Source: Woeseiaceae bacterium
Lineage (GTDB): Bacteria; Pseudomonadota; Gammaproteobacteria; Steroidobacterales; Woeseiaceae
Length of the DNA stretch: 64,000 nt
Direction of reading: 5' to 3'
Assembly: GCA_021773135.1 (NCBI GenBank)
Contig: JAJFKP010000017.1
Location: 50,520-114,519, forward strand
Position 1 is the first letter of the stretch, and the number at the start of each line of letters is the position of its first letter. This document shows, in pieces, positions 23,157 to 56,482 of this stretch. A model generated the notes under the pieces. The model was not told where the DNA came from and made no database searches. It saw only the letters and a list, made by a program, of their open reading frames with translations. The translations under genes and the position numbers were made by a program.

Positions 23157-23177
23157 TCCTTCCGCGGATCACGACTA

Positions 23178-23801
23178 ATGTCATTTATTCTTGACGCACT
23201 GAAAAAGTCCGAAGCTGAGCGACAGCGCCAGAATGCGCCGGGAATCGCGAGTATCCCCGAGCGGCACAAAGCGAAAACATCCGGCAAATGGATATGGCTC
23301 GTGACGGGATTGCTGGCTGTCAATCTGCTGGCTCTCGGCGCTCTGCTTCTTTGGAAAAGTGGTGGCCAAGCACCGGTGGAGACGCCGATCGCCTCGACTC
23401 AACTCGAGCCGCCCGCCGCCACGTTTTCTGAAATGGTAACCGAGGTCAAGCGCAGCCAGCGCAGCGTTGGTCCACCGGCAGAGGTGCAACAGCAGACCGA
23501 GGACGATGCTGTGACTACGACTGCGCCACCTGCGCCGGCAGAGAACGCGATGCGCGGACAGGTCAATACAGGCCTGGAATCGTTCAATGACCTGCGAGTG
23601 AAGGGCGAACTGCAGCTGCCCGACATGCATTTGGACATTCACGTATACAGCGGCGCGCCTGAGGATCGATTCGTGTTCGTCAACATGGCGAAGTACAAAG
23701 AGAACGCGACCTTAAGCGAAGGCCCTGTTGTTAAGGAAATCACGCCGGATGGTGTTGTTCTCCAGCACCGCGACAAAGTGTTTCTGCTGCCGCGGCAATA
23801 G
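23178..23801 (+). CDS. gspB: GspB/ExeB-like general secretion pathway protein B
   Basis: MSFILDALKKSEAERQ N-terminus, a single TM, and a C-terminal conserved block (LPDMHLDIHVYSGAPEDRFVFVN). Immediately follows the ExeA-like gene. Confidence 0.7.
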   Translation: MSFILDALKKSEAERQRQNAPGIASIPERHKAKTSGKWIWLVTGLLAVNLLALGALLLWKSGGQAPVETPIASTQLEPPAATFSEMVTEVKRSQRSVGPPAEVQQQTEDDAVTTTAPPAPAENAMRGQVNTGLESFNDLRVKGELQLPDMHLDIHVYSGAPEDRFVFVNMAKYKENATLSEGPVVKEITPDGVVLQHRDKVFLLPRQ

Positions 23802-38246: not shown

Positions 38247-39278
38247 TTACGCGGCCTCTAATCCGCGCAGAAATTCCAGCGTATTCTGGCCAATCCAGTC
38301 AACGGAGTAACCGCCTTCAAGAACTACCAATGTCGGCAGTCCGAGTTCACCGATTACGCGTCCCATTTTGTTGAAGTCCTGGGTCTCTATTTCAAAGAAC
38401 GTCGTCGGATCACCGGCAAAAGTATCCAGTCCCAATGCAAGCACCAGTGCATCCGGTGCGAATCCCTGCAGCTGGCGCAACGCATCTGCAAGCACATCGC
38501 CGTAGGTGTCCCAACCGGTACCAAACGGTAGTGGGTAATTGAGGTTAAATCCGTGACCAACACCTTCGCCGCGTTCATCGGCATAGCCGAGGAAAAACGG
38601 ATACTCGACCAAGGGATCTGCATGCAGGGAAAGCGTCATCACATCATTGCGGTGGTAGAACAGGGTCTGCGTGCCATTGCCATGATGGTAGTCGACATCA
38701 AGAACGGCTACGCGGCGAGCGCCGCCATCGATGATTGACTGCGCGGCCAGCGCGTTGTTGTTTAGGTAACAATAGCCGCCGCAATAGTTGGACGCTGCGT
38801 GATGACCCGGCGGTCGGCATGCGGAAAAAGCAATTCGCGCGTCACCCTTGACCAACTCAGCGCCCGTTAGTGCAACGTTGGCGGACGATCGAATTGCCTG
38901 CCAGCTTCCCTTGACTATTGGGGAAGTTGCGTCGAACGAATAACGGCCGAGTTTACCAACAATGTTTTCTGTCTCGGCATAGCGCATGCCGGCACCGACA
39001 AAGGCCTCAGGTCGCGCGTTGCTACCGTTCGCCCCGGAACGCTCCCAATCAGTCCACGCTGTTTTGAGAAACTCCAGGTAGTCAGGCGTATGTAAACGAG
39101 TAATTCTCCCGTCAGGAAAAATGTCTGGTTCAATAATGTCGCCAAACCCTTCCTCCCGGAAAAGGGCAGCAATATTATTGGCCCGTGCCGGGCATTCCGC
39201 ACTCGGCCCCCAGGTATCACCGTCGGGAAACAGCAGGCCGTCATGCAGATTGTGATCGTCGGAATAGACTATTTTCAT
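38247..39278 (-). CDS. Histone deacetylase-family amidohydrolase (acetylpolyamine/acetoin-utilisation type)
   Basis: CRPPGHHA, LDVDYHHGNGTQ, EGGY motifs of the arginase/deacetylase fold. 343 aa. Confidence 0.85.
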   Translation of the reverse strand: MKIVYSDDHNLHDGLLFPDGDTWGPSAECPARANNIAALFREEGFGDIIEPDIFPDGRITRLHTPDYLEFLKTAWTDWERSGANGSNARPEAFVGAGMRYAETENIVGKLGRYSFDATSPIVKGSWQAIRSSANVALTGAELVKGDARIAFSACRPPGHHAASNYCGGYCYLNNNALAAQSIIDGGARRVAVLDVDYHHGNGTQTLFYHRNDVMTLSLHADPLVEYPFFLGYADERGEGVGHGFNLNYPLPFGTGWDTYGDVLADALRQLQGFAPDALVLALGLDTFAGDPTTFFEIETQDFNKMGRVIGELGLPTLVVLEGGYSVDWIGQNTLEFLRGLEAA

Positions 39279-39344
39279 GGTTTGCCTCGAGCCTGGTCGG
39301 AAATCGTCATGTGACGGCTGCCGCTCCGGACCTCCTGCCAGAAT

Positions 39345-41456
39345 TTACAGGTTAGTTGATAATGTGCTGCATTGCCCAGCGGCGTTGCAGATCACCAGCG
39401 CATCGACAGCAATGCAGGTCTGCGCGCCCACTATGACCGGATTGACATCGATTTCCTGCAGGTTCACGGCGAGCGCCTCTACCATGACCGAGAAACGTGC
39501 TGCCACGTGACAAAAGGCGTCGATCGCAGCCGGATGGTTGCCGCGCACGCCGTCAAGCAGCGGCCGCAAACGCAGACCATCCAGACACCGCCTGGCACAG
39601 GCTGCGTCAAATGGAGGCAACGCAAATGCCACATCGTGCAGGACCTCTGCGAGTGTACCGCCAAAACCCATGACCACAACGAGACCAAACTGCGGGTCGC
39701 GGTGAGCACCAAGAATCATTTCTATGCCGGGACCGACCATCGCGGAGACGAGCACCTTCGGGCCAAGGCGCGCGGCCATCTCGGCATAGGCAAGTTGTAG
39801 CGATGCCTCGTCTTCAATTCCGAGAATGACGCCGTTATGATCCGATTTGTGAGAGATCCCTGGGGCAGCCGTTTTCAAAGCGACCGGATATTTAATCTCT
39901 TTCGCAATTCGCGACGTCTCTGCGAATGTTGCAGCAGTGCCGCACCGGGTCGCCGGTACACCAAAGTCATTCAGCATATGAAGCGAAGTCGCCTCGTCGA
40001 CTTCAGCATTTTGTGAAATGCGTTTTTGCCATTTTTTGATCGCGTCGGCGGGCGGCTTCTCGTCGTTCATCTTCGGTGCAGCAAGAAAATCCCGATAGCG
40101 CATCAGGCCACGAACACCTTTGAGAAACGGGGTCACTCCGTCCAATACCGGAAAGCCGCGATGCGTTGCCTCGACCGCCAGTGAATCGGCACCGGTACCC
40201 TGCCGTGCCGCCACCAGCGCTACGGGTTTTCCGGCAACGCTGCGGGCATGCTCCATATATCCAATGTAGGATTTATAGATCAGGCCATCGGGAGCACGGT
40301 CGTGCATGACGGCACCCAGCGCCGCATTTTCATCCTGCATCATGATGGTCAGGCAATCCGTCATCTGCTGCGCTGCGCTCGCACCGCCACGGCTCCAGGC
40401 GTCCAATGGATTAACCGGCGGCAGTTCGGGATCGAGGTGTTGCGTCAGCGCTGTCACGGTGTGGTGAGATAAATCCGTAAGCGGCACGTCTATAGCATGC
40501 GCCAGGTCGGCGATAAGCTGACGCTCGCCGCCAGAGTCGTGCAACGTTACCAGGCCACCTGGCCCCAGGGGATTGAACTCTGCAAAGAGGATCAGCGCAG
40601 TAGCGAATTCATCCATGTCGTCCACACGGTGCACGCCGTAGCGCTCAAACAACGCTGTATAGGTTGCATCATCGCCTGCCATTGCGCCTGAATGAGAAAC
40701 AGCCAGTTCGGCGGTCTGCTGACTGCGGCCGACCTTCAGGGCAACAATCGGAATCTTGCGGACGCGAGCTTTTTCAAGCGCCGCGCGAAATCCGGCCGGA
40801 TCGCGAGCGGTCTCGATGAAGAGTCCAACGACTTTCGTTTCGGGCAGGTCCAGTACGAAATCGAGGTATTGATCCATCGACACTGAAAGTTCGTTTCCGG
40901 TCGAAACAGCAACATTCACGCGCAGTCGTTCTTCGCAATCGATTATCCCGGACATGCCGGAGCCTGAATGACTGATCAGGCTGGCATTACCCTTGCCGGT
41001 GTGGCATCTGCTGTCAAATCCACAGGCCCAGACGCCATCTCTGAAATTGTAAAAGCCCATGCCATTTGCCCCGCATACCAACATGCCGGAATTCTTAATT
41101 TTCACCTGTATGCGCGCTTTTAGGTTGGGCGTAACATCATCATCGAGGACCAGTGGGGACATGATGACCGCTGCCGGAACGCCGCAGGCGATCGCGTCAT
41201 CCAGCGACGCCTCGATCCGGCGATCACTAATGGCAAATATGACGAGGTCCGGCGTTTGCGGCAAATTCGCAAAGGCGGGGAAGCAGCGCTTACCCCGCAA
41301 CTCGTCGTAACCGGGATTAATCGGGTAAATGCTGCCTGCGTAGCGCCCGCGCAGCAGGTTCTTGAGCGCCCACTCACCCATGGAACCCTTTCGCGCAGAA
41401 GCGCCTACAACAGCAACTGAACGAGGTCGGAGCAGAGGATCAAGCTGGTGTTGCAT
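39345..41456 (-). CDS. ADP-forming acyl-CoA (acetate-CoA) ligase family protein, fused alpha/beta
   Basis: N-terminal CoA-binding domain (PRSVAVVGASARKGSMGEWALKNLL...IYPINP), succinyl-CoA-synthetase-like flavodoxin domains and a C-terminal ATP-grasp. 703 aa. Confidence 0.8.
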   Translation of the reverse strand: MQHQLDPLLRPRSVAVVGASARKGSMGEWALKNLLRGRYAGSIYPINPGYDELRGKRCFPAFANLPQTPDLVIFAISDRRIEASLDDAIACGVPAAVIMSPLVLDDDVTPNLKARIQVKIKNSGMLVCGANGMGFYNFRDGVWACGFDSRCHTGKGNASLISHSGSGMSGIIDCEERLRVNVAVSTGNELSVSMDQYLDFVLDLPETKVVGLFIETARDPAGFRAALEKARVRKIPIVALKVGRSQQTAELAVSHSGAMAGDDATYTALFERYGVHRVDDMDEFATALILFAEFNPLGPGGLVTLHDSGGERQLIADLAHAIDVPLTDLSHHTVTALTQHLDPELPPVNPLDAWSRGGASAAQQMTDCLTIMMQDENAALGAVMHDRAPDGLIYKSYIGYMEHARSVAGKPVALVAARQGTGADSLAVEATHRGFPVLDGVTPFLKGVRGLMRYRDFLAAPKMNDEKPPADAIKKWQKRISQNAEVDEATSLHMLNDFGVPATRCGTAATFAETSRIAKEIKYPVALKTAAPGISHKSDHNGVILGIEDEASLQLAYAEMAARLGPKVLVSAMVGPGIEMILGAHRDPQFGLVVVMGFGGTLAEVLHDVAFALPPFDAACARRCLDGLRLRPLLDGVRGNHPAAIDAFCHVAARFSVMVEALAVNLQEIDVNPVIVGAQTCIAVDALVICNAAGQCSTLSTNL

Positions 41457-41480
41457 CAGCGCTTGCCGCTTGGAATAAAC

Positions 41481-42674
41481 CTAGAACGGTCCGGGTGGCG
41501 TTGCCCGTTTACGCGGCGGGTCCCAGAATGGCTTGTCAACCACGATTGCTTCCGCCATTACGCGCGACCAATGCATTTCGCGTTGATAATACACTTCTAC
41601 ATAAAGTTTATCGCCAACCTTGCCGTGCGGCGAGCGGACTGTACCAAGCGCGATATTCTGCTTGCACACTGGCGACCAGACGGCCGACGTAATGAAACCG
41701 ACTTCCTTTTTCGATTTCGGGTTGGCATACACGTAAGAGTGATGCGCCGGTTTGTTACCCTCGATATCGAGCTTCACGAGTTGCCAGGTGGATCCCTTGC
41801 GTTTCTCTTCCGCCAGAGCACGCCGACCATTGAAGTTTGGTTTCTTGAAGTCGACCAGCCAGTCGAGACCCAGCTCCAGGGGGGATCGCGACCTGCCGCT
41901 GCGAACCGTTACATCGGCAGGCAGGAAATCAACGTACGCTGCGATAAAACCGGCTTCAATTCTGGACTGCTCGAGCGCTTCGGTACCGATAGCCATAATG
42001 CCGTAGATCTTGCCTGCCTCGAACAGCGCATCCCACAGGTCGAGCGCCTGGTCGGGCGACAGCCACACTTCGTAACCAAGGTCGCCGGTAAATCCCGTCC
42101 GCGAAATCATTATCCCGGAGCCCTGGAAATCGAAATGGGCAAGTCCGAAAGGCCTTAGCTTTTCGATGCCCTTGATTCCCATCGCCTGGAGAATGCTGAA
42201 GGATGTGGGTCCCTGCACGGCCAATGCACATATCTCCTCGGTTTCGTCGACGATGCTCACATCCATCCCGATTGCCGACATGGTCAGCCAGGACATATGC
42301 CGTTCCTGGGAACACAGGCGATAGTCGCCCTCCGACAGGTGAAAAATAGTGCCATCATCGATGACCTGGCCCTGATCGTCACACCAGACGGCATAAGCAA
42401 CCCGGCCCGGTTTTATCTTGCGCATGTCGCGCGTAACCAGGCGATTGAGATAGTCGAGCGCATCTGGCCCTGTAATCCGATACTTGGTCATCGGTGTCAG
42501 ATCAAACACACCTGTGCTGTTACGAATTGAGAAGTATTCGAGTGTCGTATCGTAGAACCCGTCCGCACTTGAATAGCCTTTCCACTCGTGCCAGTTATTG
42601 AGGCGGTCAATTTCAGCCTGTCGCGGATAGAACGGCGAGCGCAGCCGGCCTTGTTCGACTTCCTGAATCGTCAT
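41481..42674 (-). CDS. GcvT-family aminomethyltransferase-like protein (folate-binding)
   Basis: FDLTPMTKYRITGPDALDYLNRLVTRD, ISRTGFTGDLGYEVW, and EALEQSRIEAG blocks typical of GcvT/DMGDH C-domains. The start overlaps the upstream stop by 4 nt. Confidence 0.8.
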   Translation of the reverse strand: MTIQEVEQGRLRSPFYPRQAEIDRLNNWHEWKGYSSADGFYDTTLEYFSIRNSTGVFDLTPMTKYRITGPDALDYLNRLVTRDMRKIKPGRVAYAVWCDDQGQVIDDGTIFHLSEGDYRLCSQERHMSWLTMSAIGMDVSIVDETEEICALAVQGPTSFSILQAMGIKGIEKLRPFGLAHFDFQGSGIMISRTGFTGDLGYEVWLSPDQALDLWDALFEAGKIYGIMAIGTEALEQSRIEAGFIAAYVDFLPADVTVRSGRSRSPLELGLDWLVDFKKPNFNGRRALAEEKRKGSTWQLVKLDIEGNKPAHHSYVYANPKSKKEVGFITSAVWSPVCKQNIALGTVRSPHGKVGDKLYVEVYYQREMHWSRVMAEAIVVDKPFWDPPRKRATPPGPF

Positions 42675-44218
42675 AGTGCATACCCCGATTTTAGAATGGC
42701 TCGGGCAGCGTTGCGGCCAGCCGCGCCACTGATTCCCCCTCCCGGGTGCGAGCCGGCCCCACAGAGATAAAGTCCGTCCAGCGGCATTGCGTACTGCGCT
42801 GCGCCACCAACCGGGCGCGTAAAAAGGAACTGGTCGAGGGTCAACTCACCGTGATGCCAGTGACCACCGTGGATATGAAACTGTTCCTCGATATCTACAG
42901 GCGTCAGCAGTTCCGTCGCTGTAATGCGTTCTTTTAAATCCGGCATATATTCTGCCAATGTAGCGATAGCCAGTTTTTCGAAGGCGCTCCGGCTTTTCTT
43001 GTTCCAATTGGCCCTTAATTCGTAGGGAACGTACTGCACGATTGCCGACAATACGTGCTTGCCAGTTGGTGCCAGGCTGCTATCTCTGAAACTCGGGAAG
43101 ACGATTTCAAATACTGGCTTCGCTGACGTTTCTCCATACTTGGCATGATTGAACGCGCGCTCGACATAGTCGTCTCCGGGGGCGATGATAAAACGACCGG
43201 CGAATTCTCGCTTATCCACCCCTTTGATTGCCGGCAGGCCGTCGAGTGCCAGGTGCAGTTTGGCTGCATTACCGCGCATACGCATGTGGTGGATACGATG
43301 CGTGAATCCGGTTTCCACGTTTTTGGGTTTTACCAGTTCCATGATTGTCGTTTTCGGATCGGCATTGGAAACAACCAGCCAGCTTGAAAATTTTTCGCCG
43401 CTCTCCGTTTCTACACCGGCTGCCCGCCCATTCTCAACGACAATGCGCCTTACCTTCATATTGGTGCGTATGGTCGCGCCATTGTCCCTGGCGGAGTGGG
43501 CCAGCGCCTCTGACACCGCACTCATACCTCCGCTTGGCTGGTCGATCGCACCGTGTGTCGCCGCAAGTCGGTACAGGTAGGTGAGAATCGTATTCGGGGA
43601 TCGCGGGCCAAGGTGCGTGCCCATAACGGCGTCCAGACTGATTGCACCTCGCAGTATTTCACTGTCAAAACGCTCCACCACTTCATCGCGAATATTCATG
43701 CCGATCAAACGCAGAAACTCCTGCATTTCGACCTTGCCCAGACGTCGAATGTCGAGACCGAGTTGCGCCAGGGTCAGCAGGTCTGACCTGCTCGCATCCT
43801 TTGCCAGTCGTGGCGGCGTTTTGTTCAGAAAAGTCTTCAGGAGATCGGCAAATCGATTCATCCTTGTGCAAAAATTTTTGTAACCGGCTACATCGTGTGC
43901 GTTTACCCCGGATACTTCATCGCCACTGATCCGCACATGCTTGCCGTCCGTCGACAGCGCGACCGTGGGCATGTCGCTGGCAGTCATCTCAATGTTCAGG
44001 CCAAGATCCTTGCGCACCTGTGGTTGCAGCTGATAGAGCAAATGTGCCACGGATGATACCGAGTAGCCGTCCGCAAATGTGCGCGTGACGGCGGCCCCGC
44101 CCACCTGGCTGTTAGCCTCGAGCACAAGCACCTTCTTCCCCGCTTTAGCCAGCAGGGATGCACAGACCAGTCCATTGTGCCCGGCACCCACGACTATGGC
44201 ATCGTATCGTTCACTCAT
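42671..44218 (-). CDS. FAD-dependent oxidoreductase, CrtI/phytoene-desaturase-like (amine-oxidase fold), paralogue B
   Basis: YDAIVVGAGHNGLVCASLLAKAGKKVLVLEANSQVGG dinucleotide fold and C-terminal LYLCGAGSHPGGGISGAAGRNAA. 515 aa. Confidence 0.8.
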   Translation of the reverse strand: MSERYDAIVVGAGHNGLVCASLLAKAGKKVLVLEANSQVGGAAVTRTFADGYSVSSVAHLLYQLQPQVRKDLGLNIEMTASDMPTVALSTDGKHVRISGDEVSGVNAHDVAGYKNFCTRMNRFADLLKTFLNKTPPRLAKDASRSDLLTLAQLGLDIRRLGKVEMQEFLRLIGMNIRDEVVERFDSEILRGAISLDAVMGTHLGPRSPNTILTYLYRLAATHGAIDQPSGGMSAVSEALAHSARDNGATIRTNMKVRRIVVENGRAAGVETESGEKFSSWLVVSNADPKTTIMELVKPKNVETGFTHRIHHMRMRGNAAKLHLALDGLPAIKGVDKREFAGRFIIAPGDDYVERAFNHAKYGETSAKPVFEIVFPSFRDSSLAPTGKHVLSAIVQYVPYELRANWNKKSRSAFEKLAIATLAEYMPDLKERITATELLTPVDIEEQFHIHGGHWHHGELTLDQFLFTRPVGGAAQYAMPLDGLYLCGAGSHPGGGISGAAGRNAARAILKSGYAL

Positions 44219-45834
44219 CAGTCGTCACCGAAGTTGGCCGGCGTAATATCGCGGCGTTTGAGATCCAGCAGTATTTCCCTGGCAGCATTGCATCCCGGTG
44301 CGGCCATCACGCCTCCACCCGGATGATTGCTCGATCCGCACATGTACAGCCCGCCCACGGGGCCGCGATATTGCGCGTAACCCGGAATGGGCCGGTTAAA
44401 CATCAGCTGGTCCATGGTCAGTTCACCGTGAAATATATTGCCTTCCGTCAAGCCGGCTTCGTTTTCAATTTCCTTCGGTGTCCGGACTTCACAGTGCAGG
44501 ATCAGGTCCTTGAAATCGGGGCTGTATTCGGCAATCTGGTCAATAACGGTCTGGCCGAACTGATCGCGCTCCTCGTCGGTCCATTCACGCCCTTCAACCG
44601 TCGCCGGGCAGTACTGGACAAAGCAACTCATGAAGTGTTTGCCGGGCGGCGCCATGGTTGGGTCGCATACGGTTGGAATGACCATGTCCACGTAAGGGTC
44701 TTTTGACCACGTACCCTCTTTCCAATCGTCGTAAGCCCGCTCCATTCTCTCCATCGAATCGATGAAGTGCATATCTCCATCGAGTAGCGGACTGTTTTTT
44801 GGCAACGCAGGAAAGGTCGGCAGGCCATCCAGGGCAATATTGAGTTTTCCTGAAGAGCCGCGGATCTTGAAATTTTTCACGCGATTATAGAAATCATCGT
44901 CGAGGTCGTTCTTGTCCATACACTTCAGGAACGTACGTTTTACGTCCATGGCCGAGACCACGATTGACGCATCGATCTCTTCGCCGGTCGTCAGCGCGAC
45001 GCCTTTGACTTTGCCATTCTTAACCACGATCTGGTCTACGCCGGCATCCGTCCTGAGTTCGCCCCCGTAAGACTGGAACGCGCCGCTGATTGCTTTTGCG
45101 ACTGAACCCATGCCGCCACGAGCGTAGCCCCAGGCTCCCATGCTCCCGTCAACATCGCCCATGTAGTGGTGCAGTAGTACGTAAGCGGTGCCAGGTGAAT
45201 GGATACCCAGCGCAGTGCCAATAATTCCGCTGCCCGACAGCGCCGCTTTGATGACATCGGTTTCAAAATATTCGTCCAGGTACTCGGCAACACTCATCGT
45301 CCAGAAGCGAATCGTGTCATACATCCGCTGCTCACCCATTTCATAAAACCTCGATCCGAGATGGGCCAGCTCTTTAAGATCCTTGGGTTTAAAAGATGTG
45401 GGATCCGGCGGTGTACGCAGGAGAAAGTCGCGAATGAAGCGGCACTGGCGCATCGTATCGGCGGAATAGCGTTCGTACGCGTCTGCATCTGCTTTTGAGA
45501 AACGCGCATATTCGCGATAGTGGACCTCGTGGTCCGGGTAGCTGCCCAGGTAGTCCCCGTTTTCCATGAAAACGGTGCCGCCGCCATACGGCGTCACCTG
45601 CAGTCCGTGACGTGCCAGGTTCAGATCTCGAAAAATTTCCGGCCGCAGCAGACTGCAAACGTAGGAACAATTTGAGTAATACCAGTCCTTGTAGAGGTTG
45701 CGGCTTACCGTCGCGCCGCCGATATAGTCGTTCTTCTCCAGACACAGGACATCAAGTCCTGATTTAGCCAGGTATGCGGCGTTGGTCAGGCCATTGTGTC
45801 CTGCACCAACGACGATGGCATCGTATTTCTTCAT
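44218..45834 (-). CDS. FAD-dependent oxidoreductase, CrtI/phytoene-desaturase-like (amine-oxidase fold), paralogue A
   Basis: YDAIVVGAGHNGLTNAAYLAKSGLDVLCLEKNDYIGG and C-terminal LYMCGSSNHPGGGVMAAPGCNAA. 538 aa. Its stop shares a nucleotide with the next start. Confidence 0.8.
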   Translation of the reverse strand: MKKYDAIVVGAGHNGLTNAAYLAKSGLDVLCLEKNDYIGGATVSRNLYKDWYYSNCSYVCSLLRPEIFRDLNLARHGLQVTPYGGGTVFMENGDYLGSYPDHEVHYREYARFSKADADAYERYSADTMRQCRFIRDFLLRTPPDPTSFKPKDLKELAHLGSRFYEMGEQRMYDTIRFWTMSVAEYLDEYFETDVIKAALSGSGIIGTALGIHSPGTAYVLLHHYMGDVDGSMGAWGYARGGMGSVAKAISGAFQSYGGELRTDAGVDQIVVKNGKVKGVALTTGEEIDASIVVSAMDVKRTFLKCMDKNDLDDDFYNRVKNFKIRGSSGKLNIALDGLPTFPALPKNSPLLDGDMHFIDSMERMERAYDDWKEGTWSKDPYVDMVIPTVCDPTMAPPGKHFMSCFVQYCPATVEGREWTDEERDQFGQTVIDQIAEYSPDFKDLILHCEVRTPKEIENEAGLTEGNIFHGELTMDQLMFNRPIPGYAQYRGPVGGLYMCGSSNHPGGGVMAAPGCNAAREILLDLKRRDITPANFGDD

Positions 45835-45885
45835 CGACTGTTTTCCGCCCCAGTAATATCGGATGACTTTCTTCGGGTGACCTGC

Positions 45886-47220
45886 TCAGGCCGTATTGTT
45901 TGATCTATTATCGCCCGGCAGTTTTCTAATCGTAATTTCCACCGCCTGTTCAAATTTGTCCAGCGTTTCATCGAGACATTTCACATCATGAGCCTCGCAA
46001 AAAAACCACGGTTCACGTGAATCGGGTTCGACGAGAATTCCCAGCTCATGCAGCTCGGCAGCCAGTGCGTCGTAAAAATCATAGTTGGTATTAACCCAGT
46101 CCCGGTAATCCCGCGGGGCTTCGTCACTGAAAAACAGGCCAGACATGGAGGGATGTCCTACAAAGGAATGTGGAATACCTTTAGCCGTGAGGATCCTGCC
46201 AATGCCAGTCTGCATTTGGGTGCCATAGCGCCTGACTGTTTCGAGGGCGTCAGTCTCTTCGAGGATCTGCAGCGTTTTGTCGGCGGCAGCCAGTGACACT
46301 GAATGGCCGGTAAATGTGCCGCCGTGAACGACACCATCGCCGACGATTCGCATGATGTCCTCGCGACCCGCGACGACGGAAATCGGATAGCCGTTCGCGA
46401 GTGCCTTGGCGAAAGTACAAAGATCCGCTTTAACGCCGAGCAATTCCTGGACGCCCCCCATCGCCACGCGAAAGCCCGTTTTGACTTCGTCGACAATTAG
46501 CACAACATTATATCGGTCGCACAGCGATCTGACGTCCTGCAGGTACTGCTTCGTTGCTGTCAGCCCGCAGCAGTTTCCCATGATAGGTTCGATCAGGAAA
46601 GCGCCTATGTCGTTGTGATTCTTGCGCAGAACTTCTTCTACAACGTTGGCGTCGTTGAGCGGTACCGTATGAAACAATGGTTTTACAATCTGTGGTGTGC
46701 CGGCACAGAAGGGTAGAATCTCCGGTGCGCCGTCGCGCGGATCCCAGTCCTCAACTTCCGCGTACCAGAGAACCTCCGTAAATACTCCGTGGTACCCGCC
46801 CTCAACCACGATATGTCCGTCCTTGCCGCTGTGAGCTCGCGCAATTCTCAGCGCTGCCATGACCGCTTCCGTGCCGGAGTTCGAGAACCTGACCAATTCC
46901 GCAGCCGGCACCATCCTGCTGATGCGGTTGGCGACCTCATATTCGAGCTCGGTACCCAGTGCAAATACGCCGCCAACCTGCATTCCATTGCGTGCAGCCT
47001 CGTCCACGCGCGGATCGGCGTAGCCGAGAATCGCTGGTCCGTAGCCCAGGCGATAGTCTATATATTCGTTGTCGTCGATATCCCAGATTCGACCGCCCTT
47101 GCCTCGTTTCGCATAAATGGTCTTGTCGTCACCCCAGTAGCGAAAATTTGACGCAACCCCGAGCGGCAGTTTGCCGACTGCTTTCCTGAAGTGCCTGTTG
47201 GATTTCTCAAGCGACCGCAT
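45886..47220 (-). CDS. Class III (GSA-aminomutase-like) PLP-dependent aminotransferase
   Basis: SNSGTEAVMAALRIAR and DEVKTGFR (PLP lysine). ATG 47220 has a G-rich RBS. A GTG at 47250 is an alternative start. Confidence 0.85.
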   Translation of the reverse strand: MRSLEKSNRHFRKAVGKLPLGVASNFRYWGDDKTIYAKRGKGGRIWDIDDNEYIDYRLGYGPAILGYADPRVDEAARNGMQVGGVFALGTELEYEVANRISRMVPAAELVRFSNSGTEAVMAALRIARAHSGKDGHIVVEGGYHGVFTEVLWYAEVEDWDPRDGAPEILPFCAGTPQIVKPLFHTVPLNDANVVEEVLRKNHNDIGAFLIEPIMGNCCGLTATKQYLQDVRSLCDRYNVVLIVDEVKTGFRVAMGGVQELLGVKADLCTFAKALANGYPISVVAGREDIMRIVGDGVVHGGTFTGHSVSLAAADKTLQILEETDALETVRRYGTQMQTGIGRILTAKGIPHSFVGHPSMSGLFFSDEAPRDYRDWVNTNYDFYDALAAELHELGILVEPDSREPWFFCEAHDVKCLDETLDKFEQAVEITIRKLPGDNRSNNTA

Positions 47221-47282
47221 ACCACCCCCGCTGCTCCGTGACTGGCGCACAGGATCTCACGAACCATCCGGATAAGTCCATA

Positions 47283-47308
47283 AAAATGAATGAATAATCA
47301 TTCATTTT
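47283..47308. promoter_or_regulatory. Near-perfect palindrome AAAATGAATGA-ataa-TCATTCATTTT, candidate TetR operator
   Basis: Read directly. 11-nt perfect arms with a 4-nt spacer, centred in the 167-bp divergent region between the aminotransferase operon and the tetR-ACAD pair. Confidence 0.55.
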
Positions 47309-47387
47309 CTGGCATTATCTGCATCTACAACAAATGTTTATGATAATTCTGCCAGTTACCGCTGGTCGAATGATGTGAGTCAATCTC

Positions 47388-48032
47388 ATGGCAGCTGCCA
47401 GTGCAAACATGACGCGTCGAGAGATCGCCAAGGAGCGGCGACGGCAACAACTCATCGATGCCACGATCAAGTGCATCTCTAACAAGGGCCTGGGCAGCAC
47501 GACATTATCGGATGTCGCAAGTGAAGCCGGCTTGTCCCAGGGTATCGTAAACCTGCACTTCAACAGCAAGGATAATCTGCTGCATGAAACATTGAAGTTT
47601 CTTGCTGAGGATTACGACGCCGAGTTCATGCGCACGCTTGATGGCGCACCAGATGAACCTGCAGCTCGCCTGCTTGCGCTGATGAAAATGGATCTCAAGC
47701 CGGCGATTTGTGATCGCAGGAAACTCGCCGTGTGGTTTGCTTTCTGGGGCGAAGTAAAGTCTGTACCCACCTATCAGAAAATCTGCGCAACTTATGATGA
47801 CAAGTATGACGGCATCGTGCTGGACCTTGCCGACGCAATCATTCGCTCAGGAAGCTACGCTAACATCGAGGCGCAAACGGTAACGGATGTGTTGTCATCG
47901 TTAACCGATGGGCTGTGGTTGTCATGTCTCATCAATCCAAAATCTTTTAGAAGGGCAGCAGCACTCAACGCTGTTACCAGTTATCTTTACGCCATCTTTC
48001 CTGACCATTATCCACTGGAGTCTCAACATTGA
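47388..48032 (+). CDS. TetR/AcrR family transcriptional regulator
   Basis: N-terminal HTH RRQQLIDATIKCISNKGLGSTTLSDVASEAGLSQGIVNLHFNSKDNLL. 214 aa. Confidence 0.9.
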   Translation: MAAASANMTRREIAKERRRQQLIDATIKCISNKGLGSTTLSDVASEAGLSQGIVNLHFNSKDNLLHETLKFLAEDYDAEFMRTLDGAPDEPAARLLALMKMDLKPAICDRRKLAVWFAFWGEVKSVPTYQKICATYDDKYDGIVLDLADAIIRSGSYANIEAQTVTDVLSSLTDGLWLSCLINPKSFRRAAALNAVTSYLYAIFPDHYPLESQH

Positions 48033-49189
48033 AAATCGAACTGACTGACAGTGCACGCGAGTGGCAGGCCAAGGCGCGCGAATATGCGGATAATTTTCTT
48101 CAGCCGCACGAAGTCGAAGCAGAACTGAACGGGGGCGTGATCGATAGCGAAACTACGCGGCGCAACAAGAAACGTGCACTCGAACTCGGTTTCAGCGCGA
48201 TCGACGTGCCCGAACGTTGGGGCGGACTCGCATTACCGCTGGTCGATCAGGTCGCGATCTGGGAGCAGCTAGGACGCGTAACCAACGCGCTCTCATGGTG
48301 CTTTTCGGAGCCGCAGAGGTGGATGTTCGAGGCGTGCACCGCGGAACAGATCGAATGCTATGTCCTGCCCCTGATGCGCGGCGAGAAAAAAGACTGTTAT
48401 GCGATTACTGAGGCCGGGCCAGGTTCTGATGTGGCCGGCATCGAAGCGACGGCACATTTGGACGATGGCCATTATCGGCTGAATGGCGAAAAGTGGTACG
48501 TGACCAGCGCGAATTTTGCGGACTATTTCTGGTTCCAGGCGCAACTGCCCGACGAAGGCGGCGACGCACTATTCTTTGTGGAAAAGGATAGCCCGGGAAT
48601 CGAGATGACCGACAACCCGCTTTTCAGTCATACCTACGCCGCACACCACCCCACCTTTCAATTCAGCGACGTAATGGTCCCAGCGACGAATCGGGTTGGC
48701 AAAGCCGGCGATGGCATGGCCTATACCCGCAGCTGGTTTCGCCATGAGCGGCTGATGATTGGGGCTCGAAGTTGCGGCGCCGCAGCCAGGCTGATCGAAG
48801 ACGCTACCGCGTTCGCGCAATCGAGATTAGTCGCGGGTGTGCCGCTAAGCGAAAAGCAGGCGATTCAGCTCATGCTTGCCGATTGCGCAACGGAGCTTTG
48901 GGCCGCACGCCTGATGACCTTTGAGGCCGCAGCGGCAAGCGACCGCGGCGAGGATTTAAAGGCGCTGCACAATCGTTGCTCGATGGTCAAACTGTATGTG
49001 TCCGAGATGGCCAATCGCGTAGCGGATCGGGCACTGCAAATATTCGGCGGGCGTGGCTACATGCGTGAAAACGTTGCCGAGCGTTTTTTTCGCGAGCTGC
49101 GGGTGGACCGAATCTGGGAAGGCACTAGCGAAATTCAACGACTTATCATTGCCCGCAATCTTTTGAAGCGCGGACTCGATAACATGTGA
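48029..49189 (+). CDS. Acyl-CoA dehydrogenase family protein
   Basis: TTG start overlapping the tetR stop, GGAG 8 nt upstream. YAITEAGPGSDVAG, and C-terminal QIFGGRGYMRENVAERFFRELRVDRIWEGTSEIQ. Confidence 0.9.
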   Translation: MKIELTDSAREWQAKAREYADNFLQPHEVEAELNGGVIDSETTRRNKKRALELGFSAIDVPERWGGLALPLVDQVAIWEQLGRVTNALSWCFSEPQRWMFEACTAEQIECYVLPLMRGEKKDCYAITEAGPGSDVAGIEATAHLDDGHYRLNGEKWYVTSANFADYFWFQAQLPDEGGDALFFVEKDSPGIEMTDNPLFSHTYAAHHPTFQFSDVMVPATNRVGKAGDGMAYTRSWFRHERLMIGARSCGAAARLIEDATAFAQSRLVAGVPLSEKQAIQLMLADCATELWAARLMTFEAAAASDRGEDLKALHNRCSMVKLYVSEMANRVADRALQIFGGRGYMRENVAERFFRELRVDRIWEGTSEIQRLIIARNLLKRGLDNM

Positions 49190-49254: not shown

Positions 49255-50496
49255 TTAGCTGATTACTTTTGGCGCTTTCCTGAGCTCGTGCAAGACCCAT
49301 TCAATCCAGCGCTGTTCCATTTGCTCCATGCCGGAAAACCGGCCGGGTCTGTAGTAACGGGATTGCACGCCCTTCCAGTTGTTAACGATGATCCTTTCGT
49401 CAGCCAGTGTCGTGACATCCCATAGCCATTTAAGCGCTTCGCGATCGTAGTCTTTGCCCTCCTCCGCGTCGCCGCGCACCAGCCAGTAGATTTCACACTG
49501 ACAGTGATCCTGGTCAACCGGAGTAAACACGTAACCGACAACATGGTCGCTGTAGGCCAGAAGGAATGACAAAGGGCCGACCGTAAAATCAGAAGCGCCG
49601 CCATCGTAGTCTGTAAGGTTTCCGAGCAAAGGTGCGAGTGGTTCGCCATCCCGGCTGCCCGTCTTATAGCCCTCGAACATGGCCGTGCGGCTATAGCCAT
49701 AACCCTGCTGACCGCTTGGTGCTTCCGTGTCTACGAAATCGAAGTCAATTTCTGTCAATCCGCAGGCGGACATTTTTTGACGCATTCTATCCTGCACGCG
49801 CTCAAGCTTTTTTTTGTCAAGCATTAGCGTGTGCATCTTTGCATACTCGGCATGTGCCGGCGCGCAGTGATAGCACTCCTGGTAGTTTTCAACCGAGAGC
49901 TTCCAGTTCGCTGCTATCGGGTAAGTTTTGGTCGCGGCTACCTTCAGGTTCTCGAAATCGAACATGGCCATCGGCTTTGCCAGGTCCCGCTTGGCGTATT
50001 CGAGAGATGGCGGATCGTTGCAGAAACATATGAATATGAGTCCGTGAACGATCTCCACTGAAACCGGGTGCAGACCGTTGGCCGACTTGTCGAAATCATC
50101 CGGCATGTCACGCGTACCGATGAGTCGCCCATCGGTGTCATAGACCCAGGCATGATAGGGACACTCGAAGCGACGCGTATTGCCTTCTTGCTGCAGGCAA
50201 ACGATTGAGCCGCGATGCCGGCAGACGTTGGCGAAGGCTTTGATCCGGCCGTTTTCGCTGCGGACGATGATGGCCGACTCGTTGGCAACTTTGAAAACCT
50301 TGAAGTCGCCAGCTTCTGCAATCTGGGACTGATGGCCGGCAAGGATCCAGTTGCGCATGACAATCTGGTCTAGCTCAAGCGAATAGATCTCAGGATCGGT
50401 ATAAAACCGCTGCTCCAGCGACCAGCCGGTCTTCTGGCAGGCTATCAGCTCACGAATAGGTCGGTCGTCTTGCATGGCTACCAGTCTCTTTGGCAT
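49255..50496 (-). CDS. Rieske [2Fe-2S] non-haem iron oxygenase alpha subunit (GbcA/CntA/Stc2-like class)
   Basis: CRHRGSIVC...CPYHAWVY Rieske site and NYQECYHCAPAHAEY mononuclear iron motif. The start is uncertain (50496, 50475 or 50541). Confidence 0.85.
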   Translation of the reverse strand: MPKRLVAMQDDRPIRELIACQKTGWSLEQRFYTDPEIYSLELDQIVMRNWILAGHQSQIAEAGDFKVFKVANESAIIVRSENGRIKAFANVCRHRGSIVCLQQEGNTRRFECPYHAWVYDTDGRLIGTRDMPDDFDKSANGLHPVSVEIVHGLIFICFCNDPPSLEYAKRDLAKPMAMFDFENLKVAATKTYPIAANWKLSVENYQECYHCAPAHAEYAKMHTLMLDKKKLERVQDRMRQKMSACGLTEIDFDFVDTEAPSGQQGYGYSRTAMFEGYKTGSRDGEPLAPLLGNLTDYDGGASDFTVGPLSFLLAYSDHVVGYVFTPVDQDHCQCEIYWLVRGDAEEGKDYDREALKWLWDVTTLADERIIVNNWKGVQSRYYRPGRFSGMEQMEQRWIEWVLHELRKAPKVIS

Positions 50497-50595
50497 TCGG
50501 CGTGTTCGACCCCTTATTCTAGTGCGCAAAGATAGGAACACGAAGCCGCCGTTTCACCTTGTGAATCTGCCGCACTATACTGACAGCCGATTCGT

Positions 50596-52587: not shown

Positions 52588-52654
52588 TTGTCCAAGACTA
52601 GGGAAAGCAGCGTATCAAACTTACACGCAACGACCGCGGCAATAGATCAGACTG

Positions 52655-54810: not shown

Positions 54811-54903
54811 TTTTGTATCATTTCTGCAGTGTCGGATACGTTATCGAATTCCACAGACGCACCGCCTGGCTTTGCCAAACTCACTATGCGCTGAGATTAC
54901 CCT

Positions 54904-56469: not shown

Positions 56470-56482
56470 CAGGATTTTTTCG

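What the first reader, a model, noticed from the sequence alone, without database searches (positions are those of the whole stretch)
38247..49189. TetR-associated catabolic island with an unusual enzyme combination (aminotransferase, two amine-oxidase-fold flavoproteins, GcvT-like, ADP-forming acyl-CoA synthetase, HDAC-like amidohydrolase, ACAD)
Six minus-strand genes run head to tail from 47220 to 38247 with small gaps or overlaps. Divergent from them is a tetR-ACAD pair, with a strong palindrome in the shared promoter region.

A possible logic for the enzyme set (inference only, substrate unknown):
- An N-acylated and/or N-methylated amine is deacylated by the HDAC-like amidohydrolase.
- The released acid is activated by the ADP-forming CoA ligase and handled by the ACAD.
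- The amine is oxidised or transaminated by the flavoproteins and the class III aminotransferase.
- One-carbon units are captured on folate by the GcvT-like protein.

A GcvT-like protein, a CoA ligase and an ACAD also recall the DMSP demethylation route (DmdA/B/C). Here, however, the ligase is ADP-forming, and I cannot establish DmdA identity by eye. A BCCT transporter and a Rieske N-demethylase-like oxygenase lie within 10 kb. I do not recognise this combination as a described pathway.
Basis: inference. Interest (0 to 1): 0.6.

Follow-up and report, generated by a model that had tools for sequence, protein, structure and literature searches.

The report
Uncharacterised methylated-polyamine breakdown gene cluster
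A marine-sediment bacterium (Woeseiaceae) carries a repressor-controlled gene cluster that most likely breaks down polyamine-like, probably N-methylated amines, built around an undescribed trio of two carotenoid-desaturase-like flavoproteins and a folate-binding protein that is conserved in many marine and soil bacteria.

Summary
Six head-to-tail minus-strand genes (47220-38247) lie opposite a tetR-ACAD pair, with a perfect 11-4-11 palindrome between them.

Comparison with 83 related loci changes the picture:
- **Invariant core.** FlvA-FlvB-GcvT-like is always present: two CrtI/CrtD-fold flavoproteins plus a stand-alone folate protein, translationally coupled.
- **Usual partners.** These are a GbcA-like Rieske oxygenase (window 49255-50541), a GntE/GSAM-like omega-transaminase, the BetI-type TetR with its conserved operator, and, in relatives, a PotF-type polyamine ABC importer.
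- **Accessory modules.** The DddX-like ADP-forming CoA ligase and the ACAD are common. The acetylpolyamine amidohydrolase is rare (8 of 31 fully flanked loci).
- **Polyamine context.** SAR92-type loci place the trio among Puu-like polyamine genes.

Best reading (about 0.5): catabolism of an N-methylated di- or polyamine. The steps would be oxidative N-demethylation with formaldehyde captured on tetrahydrofolate, transamination, then CoA-thioester processing of the carbon skeleton.

It is not the DmdABC route, and the ligase is not a DddX orthologue. The BCCT transporter is not part of the cluster. I found no published characterisation. The substrate is inferred, not shown.

I file it as a new variant of a known kind, interest about 0.6.

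The parts
38247..39278 (-). Acetylpolyamine amidohydrolase (APAH; HDAC-fold). An accessory module, last gene of the operon.
   Evidence: PF00850, 228 bits. Full-length matches to solved APAHs: 9gkz 8e-107, 6phr 6e-100, 3q9b 2e-90. The GHHA, DxH and EGGY motifs are present. Found in only 8 of 31 fully flanked related loci.
39345..41456 (-). ADP-forming acyl-CoA synthetase (ACD superfamily), DddX-like but a separate clade. Proposed to activate a cationic omega-amino or ammonio acid.
   Evidence: CoA_binding, Succ_CoA_lig and ATP-grasp_5 domains. Best PDB matches are nearly equal: DddX 7CM9 3e-67 (230 bits), 3-hydroxypropionate-CoA ligase 225 bits, 4-hydroxybutyrate-CoA ligase 214 bits. His255 and Trp354 (DddX His292 and Trp391) are invariant in 33 sequences. 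The DddX Glu432 position is Ser396. Tyr394 and Tyr397 are invariant. Present in 20 of 31 loci.
41481..42674 (-). Stand-alone GcvT-like tetrahydrofolate-binding protein. Proposed one-carbon (formaldehyde/iminium) acceptor subunit of the FlvAB demethylase.
   Evidence: GCV_T and GCV_T_C domains. NCBIfam: Tdm C-terminal domain 258 bits, GcvT 220, SoxA 168, DmdA 150; all below cut-off. PDB: Tdm 9q5a 2.5e-47. Start overlaps the FlvB stop (ATGA). Present in 31 of 31 loci.
42671..44218 (-). FlvB, a CrtI-like flavoprotein paralogous to FlvA (35% identity). The less conserved subunit.
   Evidence: Amino_oxidase 85 bits; CrtO model 235 bits; crtI_fam 146 bits, below the 238 cut-off. Keeps GxGxxG, Glu33 and the C-terminal HPGGG motif, which are invariant across FlvA+FlvB. 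Median identity among orthologues 67%.
44218..45834 (-). FlvA, a CrtI/CrtD-fold flavoprotein. The highly conserved, presumed catalytic subunit.
   Evidence: CrtO model 279 bits. AlphaFold model pLDDT 87.9; best fold match CrtD 4REP, TM 0.74/0.81. Orthologues are 72-99% identical in Woeseiaceae-type genomes and 60-66% in Alphaproteobacteria. Its stop overlaps the FlvB start (TGATG).
45886..47220 (-). Class III aminotransferase of the GSAM/GntE-like branch (amine to aldehyde omega-transaminase). First gene of the operon.
   Evidence: PF00202, 203 bits. GntE model 442 bits (cut-off 525), hemL 324 bits. PDB: GSAM 2.5e-68. Present in 21 of 31 loci. The ATG at 47220 gives 444 aa, as in L001.
47283..47308 (.). 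Operator-like perfect palindrome AAAATGAATGA-ATAA-TCATTCATTTT in the divergent promoter region.
   Evidence: Unique in the window, and conserved at the same position in about 40 related loci.
47388..48032 (+). TetR-family repressor with a BetI-type C-terminal domain.
   Evidence: TetR_N and TetR_C_6. BetI model 108 bits, below the cut-off of 201. Present in 19 of 31 loci, always divergent from AT or FlvA.
48029..49189 (+). Acyl-CoA dehydrogenase, co-transcribed with TetR (4-nt overlap).
   Evidence: ACAD N, M and C domains. No specific subfamily: AcrC 189 bits, CaiA 173 bits, generic short/medium-chain ACADs in PDB. Present in 17 of 31 loci, mostly together with ACD.
49255..50541 (-). Rieske non-haem-iron oxygenase alpha subunit of the GbcA-like N-demethylase group.
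   Evidence: Rieske and Ring_hydroxyl_A domains. GbcA model 289 bits, cut-off 670. Present in 23 of 31 loci, often directly upstream of FlvA.

Best explanation
This is a TetR-repressed catabolic regulon for a polyamine-like amine that most probably carries N-methyl groups.

**Proposed steps.** Every step is inferred from family, context and co-occurrence. None is shown biochemically.
1. In relatives, a PotF-type ABC system imports a dicationic amine. The window's genome has lost this importer.
2. N-methyl groups are removed oxidatively by two systems.
   - One is the GbcA-like Rieske monooxygenase.
   - The other is a three-protein enzyme: FlvA and FlvB (a heteromer of two CrtI-fold flavoproteins) oxidise the N-CH3 bond. 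The iminium or formaldehyde unit then passes to tetrahydrofolate on the stand-alone GcvT-like protein.
   - This arrangement is a split analogue of dimethylglycine/sarcosine dehydrogenase or heterotetrameric sarcosine oxidase, built on a different flavoprotein fold.
3. The GntE/GSAM-like transaminase converts the freed primary amine to an aldehyde.
4. A PuuC/BADH-like aldehyde dehydrogenase, present in relatives and missing from the window's cluster (the genome's best matches elsewhere are 38-41% identical), makes the omega-amino acid.
5. The DddX-like ADP-forming ligase converts that cationic acid to its CoA thioester. The ACAD (plus an enoyl-CoA hydratase in relatives) then desaturates or eliminates and hydrates it.
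6. The acetylpolyamine amidohydrolase is an optional entry step for N-acetylated forms.
7. The TetR binds the conserved ATGAATGA-N4-TCATTCAT operator and is presumably released by the substrate.
For: **The core behaves as one unit.**
- FlvA-FlvB-GcvT is together in 31 of 31 fully flanked loci (64 of 83 overall; the rest are truncated). The order is fixed and stop/start codons overlap.
- The trio also occurs in cultured Alphaproteobacteria: Shinella, Parasedimentitalea, Fuscovulum, Leisingera.

**The partners are amine-catabolic.**
- Rieske 23/31, AT 21/31, TetR 19/31, PotF-type ABC 18/31.
- The SBP matches E. coli PotF at 1e-92.
- It keeps W37, D39, Y40, S85, W244, D247, D278 and Y314, with E185D and F276W, in 26-29 of 29 copies.
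- The HDAC-like protein is an APAH homologue (8e-107) with its catalytic motifs.
- The ALDH of relatives is closest to PuuC (545 bits) and BADH (506 bits).
- SAR92-type loci add a gamma-glutamylputrescine-synthetase-like protein, a DAO, a GATase1 and a second AT.

**Evidence for N-methyl groups and folate.**
- The GcvT-like protein scores best against the formaldehyde-capturing Tdm domain and against GcvT.
- From established knowledge, every characterised flavoprotein+GcvT pairing (DMGDH, SDH, SoxAB, DMGO) is an N-methyl oxidative demethylase.
- The Rieske protein is nearest to GbcA.
- Alphaproteobacterial versions add further Rieske subunits and a 680-aa FadH/OYE-type Fe-S flavoprotein, the architecture I recall for TMADH and DgcA.
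- Some loci add an MmuM-type homocysteine methyltransferase, 362 bits against a cut-off of 215.

**The ACD pocket.** Trp354, Tyr394 and Tyr397 are invariant. This recalls the cation-pi residues of DddX.

**A recurring association.** A paralogous Flv-GcvT pair in Shinella sumterensis again sits with an ACD (33% identical), an ECH and a HADH.

**The operator** is conserved across about 40 loci.
Against: - No substrate, transcript or enzyme activity has been observed for any member.
- The CrtI family is known for C-C desaturation and isomerisation, not amine oxidation. FlvA resembles MAO-type oxidases only at superfamily level (TM about 0.6).
- No fusion of Flv with GcvT appeared among the best 150 representatives.
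- The window's own genome lacks any PotF-type SBP. The cluster also lacks the ALDH and ECH found in near relatives, so the pathway here is incomplete or fed differently.
- The SBPs of Shinella and Parasedimentitalea have lost three of the four acidic ligand-binding residues, so the substrate may differ between lineages.
- 'Short-form' loci contain only Rieske-FlvA-FlvB-GcvT, or the trio alone, with no polyamine genes.
- N-methylated polyamines are not an established bacterial growth substrate.
Confidence: 0.5

Rival explanations
1. Betaine route. The Rieske oxygenase plus FlvAB-GcvT form an alternative glycine betaine to dimethylglycine to sarcosine to glycine demethylation system (or act on another carboxylate betaine such as beta-alanine betaine or gamma-butyrobetaine). 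This would replace the canonical GbcAB/DgcAB/SoxBDAG or DMGDH enzymes.
For: - The genome (99.7% complete) has only four GCV_T-domain proteins: the true GcvT, the two trio proteins and a weak YgfZ-like hit. It has no SoxB above cut-off, so canonical DMG/sarcosine demethylases are absent.
- The Rieske protein is nearest to GbcA.
- The TetR has a BetI-type C-terminal domain.
- Short-form loci are just Rieske-FlvA-FlvB-GcvT.
- Shinella adds a 680-aa FadH/OYE-type flavoprotein of the architecture I recall for DgcA. This mirrors the three-enzyme betaine logic.
- An ACAD with CaiA similarity (173 bits) and the ACD/ECH could handle a betainyl-CoA.
Against: - The in-cluster transporter of relatives is PotF-type and keeps all four acidic residues. 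That suits a dication, not a zwitterion.
- A transaminase is present in 21 of 31 loci and has no role if glycine is the product.
- GbcA and BetI scores are far below their cut-offs (289 vs 670; 108 vs 201).
- By my recollection (not checked here), Rhizobiaceae and Roseobacter-group carriers already have canonical betaine catabolism (carriers).
- The BCCT transporter is not conserved with the cluster.
Confidence: 0.15
2. Plain (unmethylated) polyamine or acetylpolyamine catabolism. FlvAB would be a polyamine oxidase or dehydrogenase that cleaves secondary-amine C-N bonds in spermidine or norspermidine. The GcvT-like protein would have a structural or non-one-carbon role. This is essentially the first reader's scheme without the demethylation.
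For: - APAH, PotF-type SBP, PuuC-like ALDH and Puu-like neighbours are present.
- FlvA and FlvB hit Pfam Amino_oxidase, the family that holds polyamine oxidases.
- The ACD resembles the 3-hydroxypropionate and 4-hydroxybutyrate CoA ligases, which fit the C3 and C4 skeletons of polyamines.
Against: - It gives no reason for the invariant, translationally coupled folate protein (31 of 31 loci).
- It does not explain the GbcA-like Rieske N-demethylase-type oxygenase, or the extra FadH/OYE-type (TMADH/DgcA-like), Rieske and MmuM demethylation-type genes in relatives.
- From established knowledge, every characterised GcvT-family member transfers a one-carbon unit.
Confidence: 0.15
3. Organosulfur route. 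The cluster degrades DMSP or a sulfonium amine (DMSP-amine, S-methylmethionine). The ACD would act as a DddX-type CoA-ligating lyase and the GcvT-like protein as a DmdA-like demethylase.
For: - The ACD's best solved relative is DddX, with the phosphohistidine and Trp391 equivalents invariant.
- A functional DddX-like enzyme lacking Glu432 is known (PMC13543886).
- The Fuscovulum cluster carries a cupin annotated as 'DMSP lyase family'.
- MmuM-type methyltransferase and Met-salvage or Met-synthesis genes are neighbours in some loci.
- The ACAD's top model is acryloyl-CoA reductase.
Against: - The DmdA model scores 150 bits against a cut-off of 410; the protein is closer to Tdm and GcvT.
- The ACD is equally distant from the 3HP and 4HB ligases, and closer (33%, 364 bits) to a paralogue in a non-DMSP context.
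- The Glu432 equivalent is Ser.
- No dddB/C/T or dmdB/D genes are present.
- Flavin-dependent oxidative S-demethylation coupled to THF is unprecedented.
- The Rieske protein is of the N-demethylase type.
Confidence: 0.08

Closest known systems
Dimethylglycine/sarcosine dehydrogenases, dimethylglycine oxidase and heterotetrameric sarcosine oxidase (SoxBDAG)
   Same: A flavoprotein that oxidises an N-methyl group is coupled to a GcvT-fold folate site that takes the one-carbon unit. In SoxBDAG the parts are also separate, co-translated subunits.
   Different: The flavoprotein here is a pair of CrtI/CrtD-fold paralogues, not a DAO-fold enzyme. The folate protein stands alone rather than being fused. 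The genomic context is polyamine and transaminase genes, not glycine betaine.
TMAO demethylase Tdm (and, from memory, the DmmD folate protein of dimethylamine monooxygenase)
   Same: The window's GcvT-like protein scores best against the C-terminal folate domain of Tdm (258 bits; PDB 9q5a 2.5e-47). In Tdm that domain captures formaldehyde released by a separate catalytic domain.
   Different: There is no DUF1989 catalytic domain. The partner is a flavoprotein pair. The score is far below the Tdm cut-off of 1100.
DddX, the ATP-dependent DMSP lyase (PDB 7CM9; eLife 2021, PMC8163506), and the DddX-like enzyme of Neptunicoccus (PMC13543886)
   Same: The full-length ACD architecture is the same. 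The phosphohistidine (His255) and the Trp391 equivalent (Trp354) are invariant, and the pocket is rich in aromatic residues.
   Different: Similarity is only 230 bits, no closer than to the 3-hydroxypropionate and 4-hydroxybutyrate CoA ligases. The Glu432 base is replaced by Ser. There is no ddd context.
Bacterial polyamine catabolism (Puu/Pau gamma-glutamylation pathway, SpuC/PatA transaminase route, acetylpolyamine amidohydrolase)
   Same: It shares a PotF-type importer, APAH, a PuuC/ABALDH-like aldehyde dehydrogenase and a class III transaminase. In SAR92-type loci it also shares GS-like, DAO and GATase1 genes.
   Different: The known routes contain no folate protein, no CrtI-like flavoproteins, no Rieske oxygenase and no ADP-forming CoA ligase or ACAD.
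Glycine betaine, carnitine and proline betaine Rieske N-demethylases (GbcA, CntA, Stc2)
   Same: A Rieske domain plus catalytic domain; GbcA is the best-scoring model (289 bits).
   Different: The score is below the equivalog cut-off of 670. No reductase partner is encoded in the cluster. The substrate is unknown.

Membership tests
DMSP demethylation pathway (DmdA/DmdB/DmdC) | DmdA-type GcvT-family methyltransferase (NCBIfam NF009133, cut-off 410 bits) | tested here: not met
   149.8 bits. The Tdm domain (258) and GcvT (220) score higher. PDB DmdA 3tfh is only 2e-27, against 2.5e-47 for Tdm.
DMSP demethylation pathway (DmdA/DmdB/DmdC) | DmdB is an AMP-forming acyl-CoA ligase | tested here: not met
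   The ligase has CoA_binding, Succ_CoA_lig and ATP-grasp_5 domains, which is the ADP-forming ACD type.
DddX DMSP lyase | ACD architecture with a phosphohistidine (His292) and a cation-pi Trp391 | tested here: met
   His255 and Trp354 align to these residues and are invariant in 33 sequences.
DddX DMSP lyase | Catalytic base Glu432 | tested here: not met
   The aligned position is Ser396 (Ser in 25 of 33). The alignment is weak in this stretch, and a functional DddX-like enzyme also lacks the Glu.
DddX DMSP lyase | Orthology: closer to DddX than to other ACD enzymes | tested here: not met
   230 bits to DddX, against 225 (3HP-CoA ligase), 214 (4HB-CoA ligase) and 364 (Shinella sumterensis paralogue).
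Acetylpolyamine amidohydrolase (APAH, HDAC fold) | Full-length homology to solved APAHs, plus the His-His dyad, Asp-x-His zinc ligands and the EGGY catalytic Tyr | tested here: met
   9gkz 8e-107, 6phr 6e-100, 3q9b 2e-90. GHHA at 158-161, DYH at 196-198, EGGY at 321-324. Substrate specificity was not tested.
CrtI/phytoene desaturase family (carotenoid enzymes) | Score above the TIGR02734 cut-off (238 bits) and a carotenoid gene context | tested here: not met
   FlvB 146 and FlvA 117 bits; the CrtO model gives 235 and 279 against a cut-off of 1000. No crtB, crtE or crtY in any neighbourhood. The fold is CrtD-like.
Flavin amine oxidases (MAO/PAO/putrescine oxidase) | Closest sequence and fold relatives are amine oxidases | tested here: not met
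   Pfam Amino_oxidase is hit (85 and 39 bits). The nearest structures, however, are CrtD and CrtI. MAO, NicA2 and putrescine oxidase reach TM about 0.55-0.6 at 13-17% identity.
Folate-coupled N-methyl dehydrogenases/oxidases (DMGDH, SDH, SoxBDAG) | DAO-fold flavoprotein joined to a GcvT-fold folate domain | tested here: not met
   The GcvT-fold part is present, but the flavoprotein is CrtI-fold. It works like this family (inferred) without being a member.
Glycine betaine monooxygenase GbcA | NF058607 equivalog cut-off of 670 bits | tested here: not met
   288.6 bits.
BetI choline-responsive repressor | TIGR03384 cut-off of 201 bits | tested here: not met
   107.7 bits. Only the BetI-type C-terminal Pfam domain is met.
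PotF-type polyamine ABC importer (relatives only) | Conservation of the putrescine-binding residues of E. coli PotF | tested here: met
   W37, D39, Y40, W244, D247, D278 and Y314 are kept in 28-29 of 29 copies and S85 in 24 of 29. E185D, F276W and S87Q are substitutions. No such SBP was found in the window's own genome.

The most novel reading that the evidence does not exclude
The long form of the cluster could be a machine for dismantling N-methylated long-chain polyamines, the methylated oligo-propyleneimine chains that diatoms embed in their silica. Woeseiaceae would meet these in sediments.

The proposed cycle is iterative:
1. The Rieske oxygenase and FlvAB-GcvT strip methyl groups onto folate.
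2. The transaminase and aldehyde dehydrogenase turn the freed terminal aminopropyl unit into an N-substituted beta-alanine.
3. The DddX-like ligase makes its CoA thioester. This then beta-eliminates to acryloyl-CoA plus the shortened amine, avoiding free acrolein.
4. The cycle repeats.

FlvAB-GcvT would then be the first folate-coupled demethylase built on a CrtI fold.
Probability: 0.1. Interest if true: 0.85.

Novelty: new variant of a known kind. Interest (0 to 1): 0.6.

Why it matters
- **Ecology.** Woeseiaceae are, by published accounts, among the most abundant bacteria of marine sediments. The trio has thousands of close homologues in the metagenome-derived protein collection, and it also occurs in Roseobacter-group and rhizobial isolates.
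- **Annotation.** Every database copy is labelled only 'phytoene desaturase family' or 'NAD(P)/FAD-dependent oxidoreductase'.
- **Enzymology.** If the trio is a folate-coupled N-demethylase, it adds a new enzyme architecture for methyl-group and one-carbon recovery from organic nitrogen. It would also extend the CrtI family to amine chemistry.
- **Nitrogen cycling.** It would point to an unrecognised pool of methylated polyamine-like compounds being turned over in sediments and in the phycosphere.
- **Testability.** Cultured carriers and conserved parts (the TetR operator and the SBP) make this directly testable.
- **Annotation hygiene.** The DddX-like ligase clade warns against calling DMSP lyases by homology alone.

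Tried and rejected
- **DmdABC reading.** Rejected on HMM scores and ligase type.
- **DddX orthology.** Rejected: the ACD is equidistant from other ACD enzymes and the Glu432 position is Ser.
- **Carotenoid function for FlvA/FlvB.** Rejected: scores are below family cut-offs and no crt genes are nearby.
- **BCCT as the cluster's transporter.** Rejected on neighbourhood data.
- **Genomic island by composition.** No GC or skew anomaly.
- **Promoter and terminator scans.** Counts are not above shuffled expectation, so they say nothing about operon structure.
- **Rosetta-stone fusions of Flv with GcvT.** None among the best 150 representatives. Two longer proteins (764 and 816 aa) were not examined.
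- **Literature.** Five full-text searches on combinations of aminomethyltransferase, phytoene dehydrogenase, Rieske, polyamine, betaine, Woeseiaceae and methylated polyamines found no description of this cluster. Two candidate papers were checked and are irrelevant.
- **ACAD subfamily.** PDB and NCBIfam give only generic short/medium-chain ACAD similarity.
- **unk297.** This 297-aa protein follows ACD in 16 loci and has no Pfam, NCBIfam or PDB match.
- **GcvT tree.** A proper GcvT-family tree with reference DmdA, Tdm, SoxA and DMGDH sequences was not built. Placement rests on HMM and PDB scores.

Full report
**1. What is there**

The window comes from a Woeseiaceae-type gammaproteobacterial genome. 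The closest loci are all Woeseiaceae or Woeseia MAGs. The assembly is 4.55 Mb and 99.7% complete.

On the minus strand, six genes run head to tail:
- class III aminotransferase, 45886-47220/47250
- FlvA, 44218-45834
- FlvB, 42671-44218
- GcvT-like protein, 41481-42674
- ADP-forming acyl-CoA synthetase (ACD), 39345-41456
- HDAC-fold amidohydrolase, 38247-39278

The FlvA stop overlaps the FlvB start (TGATG). The FlvB stop overlaps the GcvT-like start (ATGA). Divergently, a TetR (47388-48032) overlaps an ACAD (48029-49189) by 4 nt.

The 137-nt intergenic region holds a perfect palindrome, AAAATGAATGA-ATAA-TCATTCATTTT, at 47283-47308. Pfam and NCBIfam confirm all family calls.

One refinement is needed. 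The flavoproteins belong to the CrtI/CrtO/CrtD branch of the amine-oxidase superfamily.
- Sequence.
- Fold: the FlvA model has pLDDT 87.9. Its best match is CrtD 4REP at TM 0.74/0.81, against about 0.55-0.6 for MAO, NicA2 and putrescine oxidase.
- Both paralogues keep the dinucleotide-binding GxGxxG, Glu33 and the C-terminal HPGGG motif.

**2. Comparative genomics redraws the unit**

I fetched 80 related loci using FlvA as bait, plus three annotated alphaproteobacterial plasmids. I then mapped every neighbour.

In the 31 loci with full flanks on both sides, the counts are:

| Gene | Loci (of 31) |
|---|---|
| GcvT-like | 31 |
| Rieske oxygenase | 23 |
| Aminotransferase | 21 |
| ACD | 20 |
| TetR | 19 |
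| PotF-type ABC importer | 17-18 |
| ACAD | 17 |
| HDAC | 8 |
| ALDH | 8 |
| Unknown 297-aa protein | 8 |
| ECH | 4 |

The invariant core is FlvA-FlvB-GcvT. FlvA is much more conserved than FlvB (median identity 79% against 67%).

It belongs to the set and is often directly upstream of FlvA.

The window is a reduced version.
- L001 (FlvA 98% identical) additionally carries SBP-ATPase-2 permeases behind the ACAD, and ALDH-ECH between ACD and HDAC.
- L071 (99% identical) has the window's architecture.
- The window's genome has no PotF-type SBP anywhere.

The palindrome's core, ATGAATGA-N4-TCATTCAT, recurs at the same place in about 40 loci, including SAR92-type genomes. It occurs only once in the 64-kb window. 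It is very likely the TetR operator.

The BCCT transporter is not co-conserved.

**3. What the parts say**

*Polyamine context*
- The HDAC-fold protein is a close, full-length homologue of solved acetylpolyamine amidohydrolases (8e-107 to 2e-90). It has the GHHA, DxH and EGGY motifs.
- The relatives' SBP matches E. coli PotF and P. aeruginosa SpuD/E at about 1e-92.
- The SBP retains the putrescine-binding residues W37, D39, Y40, S85, W244, D247, D278 and Y314, with E185D, F276W and S87Q. That suits a dicationic ligand.
- The ALDH is closest to PuuC, BADH and aminobutyraldehyde dehydrogenase.
- In SAR92-type loci the trio sits with a gamma-glutamylputrescine-synthetase-like protein, a DAO, a GATase1 and a second class III AT. 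This is a Puu-like set.

*Signs of N-demethylation*
- The GcvT-like protein scores best against the folate domain of TMAO demethylase (258 bits; PDB 9q5a 2.5e-47) and against GcvT. DmdA gets only 150 bits against a cut-off of 410.
- The Rieske protein is nearest to GbcA, at 289 bits against a cut-off of 670.
- Alphaproteobacterial versions add more Rieske subunits and a 680-aa FadH/OYE-type Fe-S flavoprotein, the architecture I recall for TMADH and DgcA.
- Some Woeseiaceae versions add an MmuM-type homocysteine methyltransferase and a MOSC protein.

*Transaminase*

It is of the GSAM/GntE-like branch (442 bits to GntE). From what I recall of the guanitoxin pathway (not checked here), GntE interconverts an aldehyde and a primary amine.

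*ACD*
- Its best solved relative is the DMSP lyase DddX (3e-67). It is equally close to the 3-hydroxypropionate and 4-hydroxybutyrate CoA ligases.
- The phosphohistidine (His255) and the DddX Trp391 equivalent (Trp354) are invariant.
- The DddX base Glu432 aligns to Ser396.
- Tyr394 and Tyr397 are invariant.
- The aromatic pocket suggests a cationic acid substrate. This is an inference.

*ACAD*

It has no specific subfamily signal.

*A paralogous system*

Shinella sumterensis has a paralogous Flv-GcvT pair with an ACD (33% identical), an ECH, a HADH and a BKACE. The link between flavoprotein/GcvT and CoA-thioester chemistry therefore recurs.

**4. Most likely mechanism (inferred, confidence about 0.5)**

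A TetR-controlled pathway for a polyamine-like amine bearing N-methyl groups:
1. Uptake, by a PotF-type system in relatives.
2. Oxidative N-demethylation by the Rieske oxygenase and by FlvAB. The one-carbon unit is handed to tetrahydrofolate on the GcvT-like subunit. This is a split analogue of DMGDH or SoxBDAG on a CrtI-fold scaffold.
3. Transamination of the freed primary amine.
4. Oxidation to the amino acid, by the ALDH in relatives.
5. CoA activation by the ACD.
6. Desaturation or elimination and hydration by the ACAD (and the ECH in relatives).

APAH is an optional entry for acetylated forms.

ACD is 2.5 times more frequent than HDAC and tracks the transaminase (19 of 21 AT-containing loci).

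**5. Rivals**

- **(a) Betaine demethylation (0.15).** The genome lacks SoxA, DMGDH, Tdm and DmdA-type GCV_T proteins, and has no SoxB above cut-off. The trio could therefore be its dimethylglycine/sarcosine dehydrogenase. The PotF-type SBP, the transaminase and the presence in bacteria that, as I recall, already have canonical betaine pathways argue against this.
- **(b) Plain polyamine oxidation with a non-C1 role for GcvT (0.15).** This leaves the invariant folate protein and the Rieske/TMADH-like/MmuM-type genes unexplained.
- **(c) DMSP or sulfonium amine (0.08).** There are DddX-like, cupin 'DMSP lyase family' and MmuM hints, but the DmdA test fails and there is no ddd/dmd context.

**6. 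Known or new**

Five literature searches found no description of this cluster. All database names for FlvA orthologues are generic. Two earlier first-stage notes on other genomes made the same split-demethylase guess but are unchecked.

I file this as a new variant of a known kind: folate-coupled oxidative N-demethylation inside amine catabolism. The flavoprotein scaffold is undescribed and the substrate is unknown.

**7. Limits**

- There is no expression or biochemical evidence.
- No reference-anchored GcvT phylogeny was built.
- No multimer model was made.
- The window's copy lacks the importer, ALDH and ECH of its relatives.
- The SBPs of Shinella and Parasedimentitalea have lost three acidic residues, so substrates may differ among lineages.

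Noticed in passing
own genome, contig C47:73354-78375 (locus L089:10352-15355): A second, paralogous trio in the order FlvB'-FlvA'-GcvT' (FlvA' 61% and GcvT' 50% identical to the window's). It is convergent with a MOSC-domain gene. A few kb upstream, beyond a Sortilin/BNR-repeat protein and an unassigned ORF, lie IF-2B-family and class II aldolase genes that look like methionine salvage (mtnA/mtnB-like). No TetR, transaminase or Rieske gene is nearby.
   Followed up: partly
own genome, contig C1:16343-17932 (locus L090:8344-9951): A lone third paralogue of FlvA (38% identity). The genome search flagged one in-frame TGA, but the ORF listing shows an intact 535-aa ORF. Its neighbourhood was not annotated.
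   Followed up: no
L033:16410-17303 and 15 other related loci; own genome C47:202892-203752: A conserved 297-aa protein directly follows the ACD in 16 loci. It has no Pfam, NCBIfam or PDB match. It may be a missing pathway enzyme (lyase or hydratase?). The window's cluster lacks it, but the genome has a 61% homologue elsewhere.
   Followed up: partly
L092 (Shinella sumterensis plasmid NZ_CP132306, 52997-63788): A paralogous operon: ECH, ADP-forming CoA ligase, 3-hydroxyacyl-CoA dehydrogenase, a single Flv paralogue, GcvT, class II aldolase, BKACE and an SBP, under a LysR regulator. It is another uncharacterised pathway linking flavoprotein/GcvT to CoA thioesters, possibly for a betaine-type acid.
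   Followed up: partly
L081 (Shinella zoogloeoides) 11959-13041 and L082 (Parasedimentitalea marina) 22511-23572: The PotF-family SBPs of these clusters have lost three of the four acidic ligand-binding residues (D39G, D247T, D278C) while keeping the aromatic ones. This suggests a mono-cationic or quaternary ligand, different from that of the Woeseiaceae clusters.
   Followed up: partly
L082 (Parasedimentitalea marina pW43C) 528-6171: A LysR-linked operon about 8 kb from the trio: HDAC-family protein, BKACE (3-keto-5-aminohexanoate cleavage family), class III aminotransferase, amidohydrolase and alanine racemase. It could be a route for an N-acetylated diamino acid such as N-acetyl-beta-lysine. 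This is speculative.
   Followed up: no
window 50596-57778: Between the Rieske gene and the BCCT transporter lie unrelated genes: an S9 prolyl-oligopeptidase/Dpp5-like peptidase, galK, galT, a sodium:solute symporter and a beta-lactamase-fold protein. These separate the BCCT from the cluster.
   Followed up: partly
window 28569-29327: A bacterial TANGO2-family (PF05742) protein (222 bits) lies beside a NUDIX NADH-pyrophosphatase-like gene. It is unrelated to the finding.
   Followed up: no
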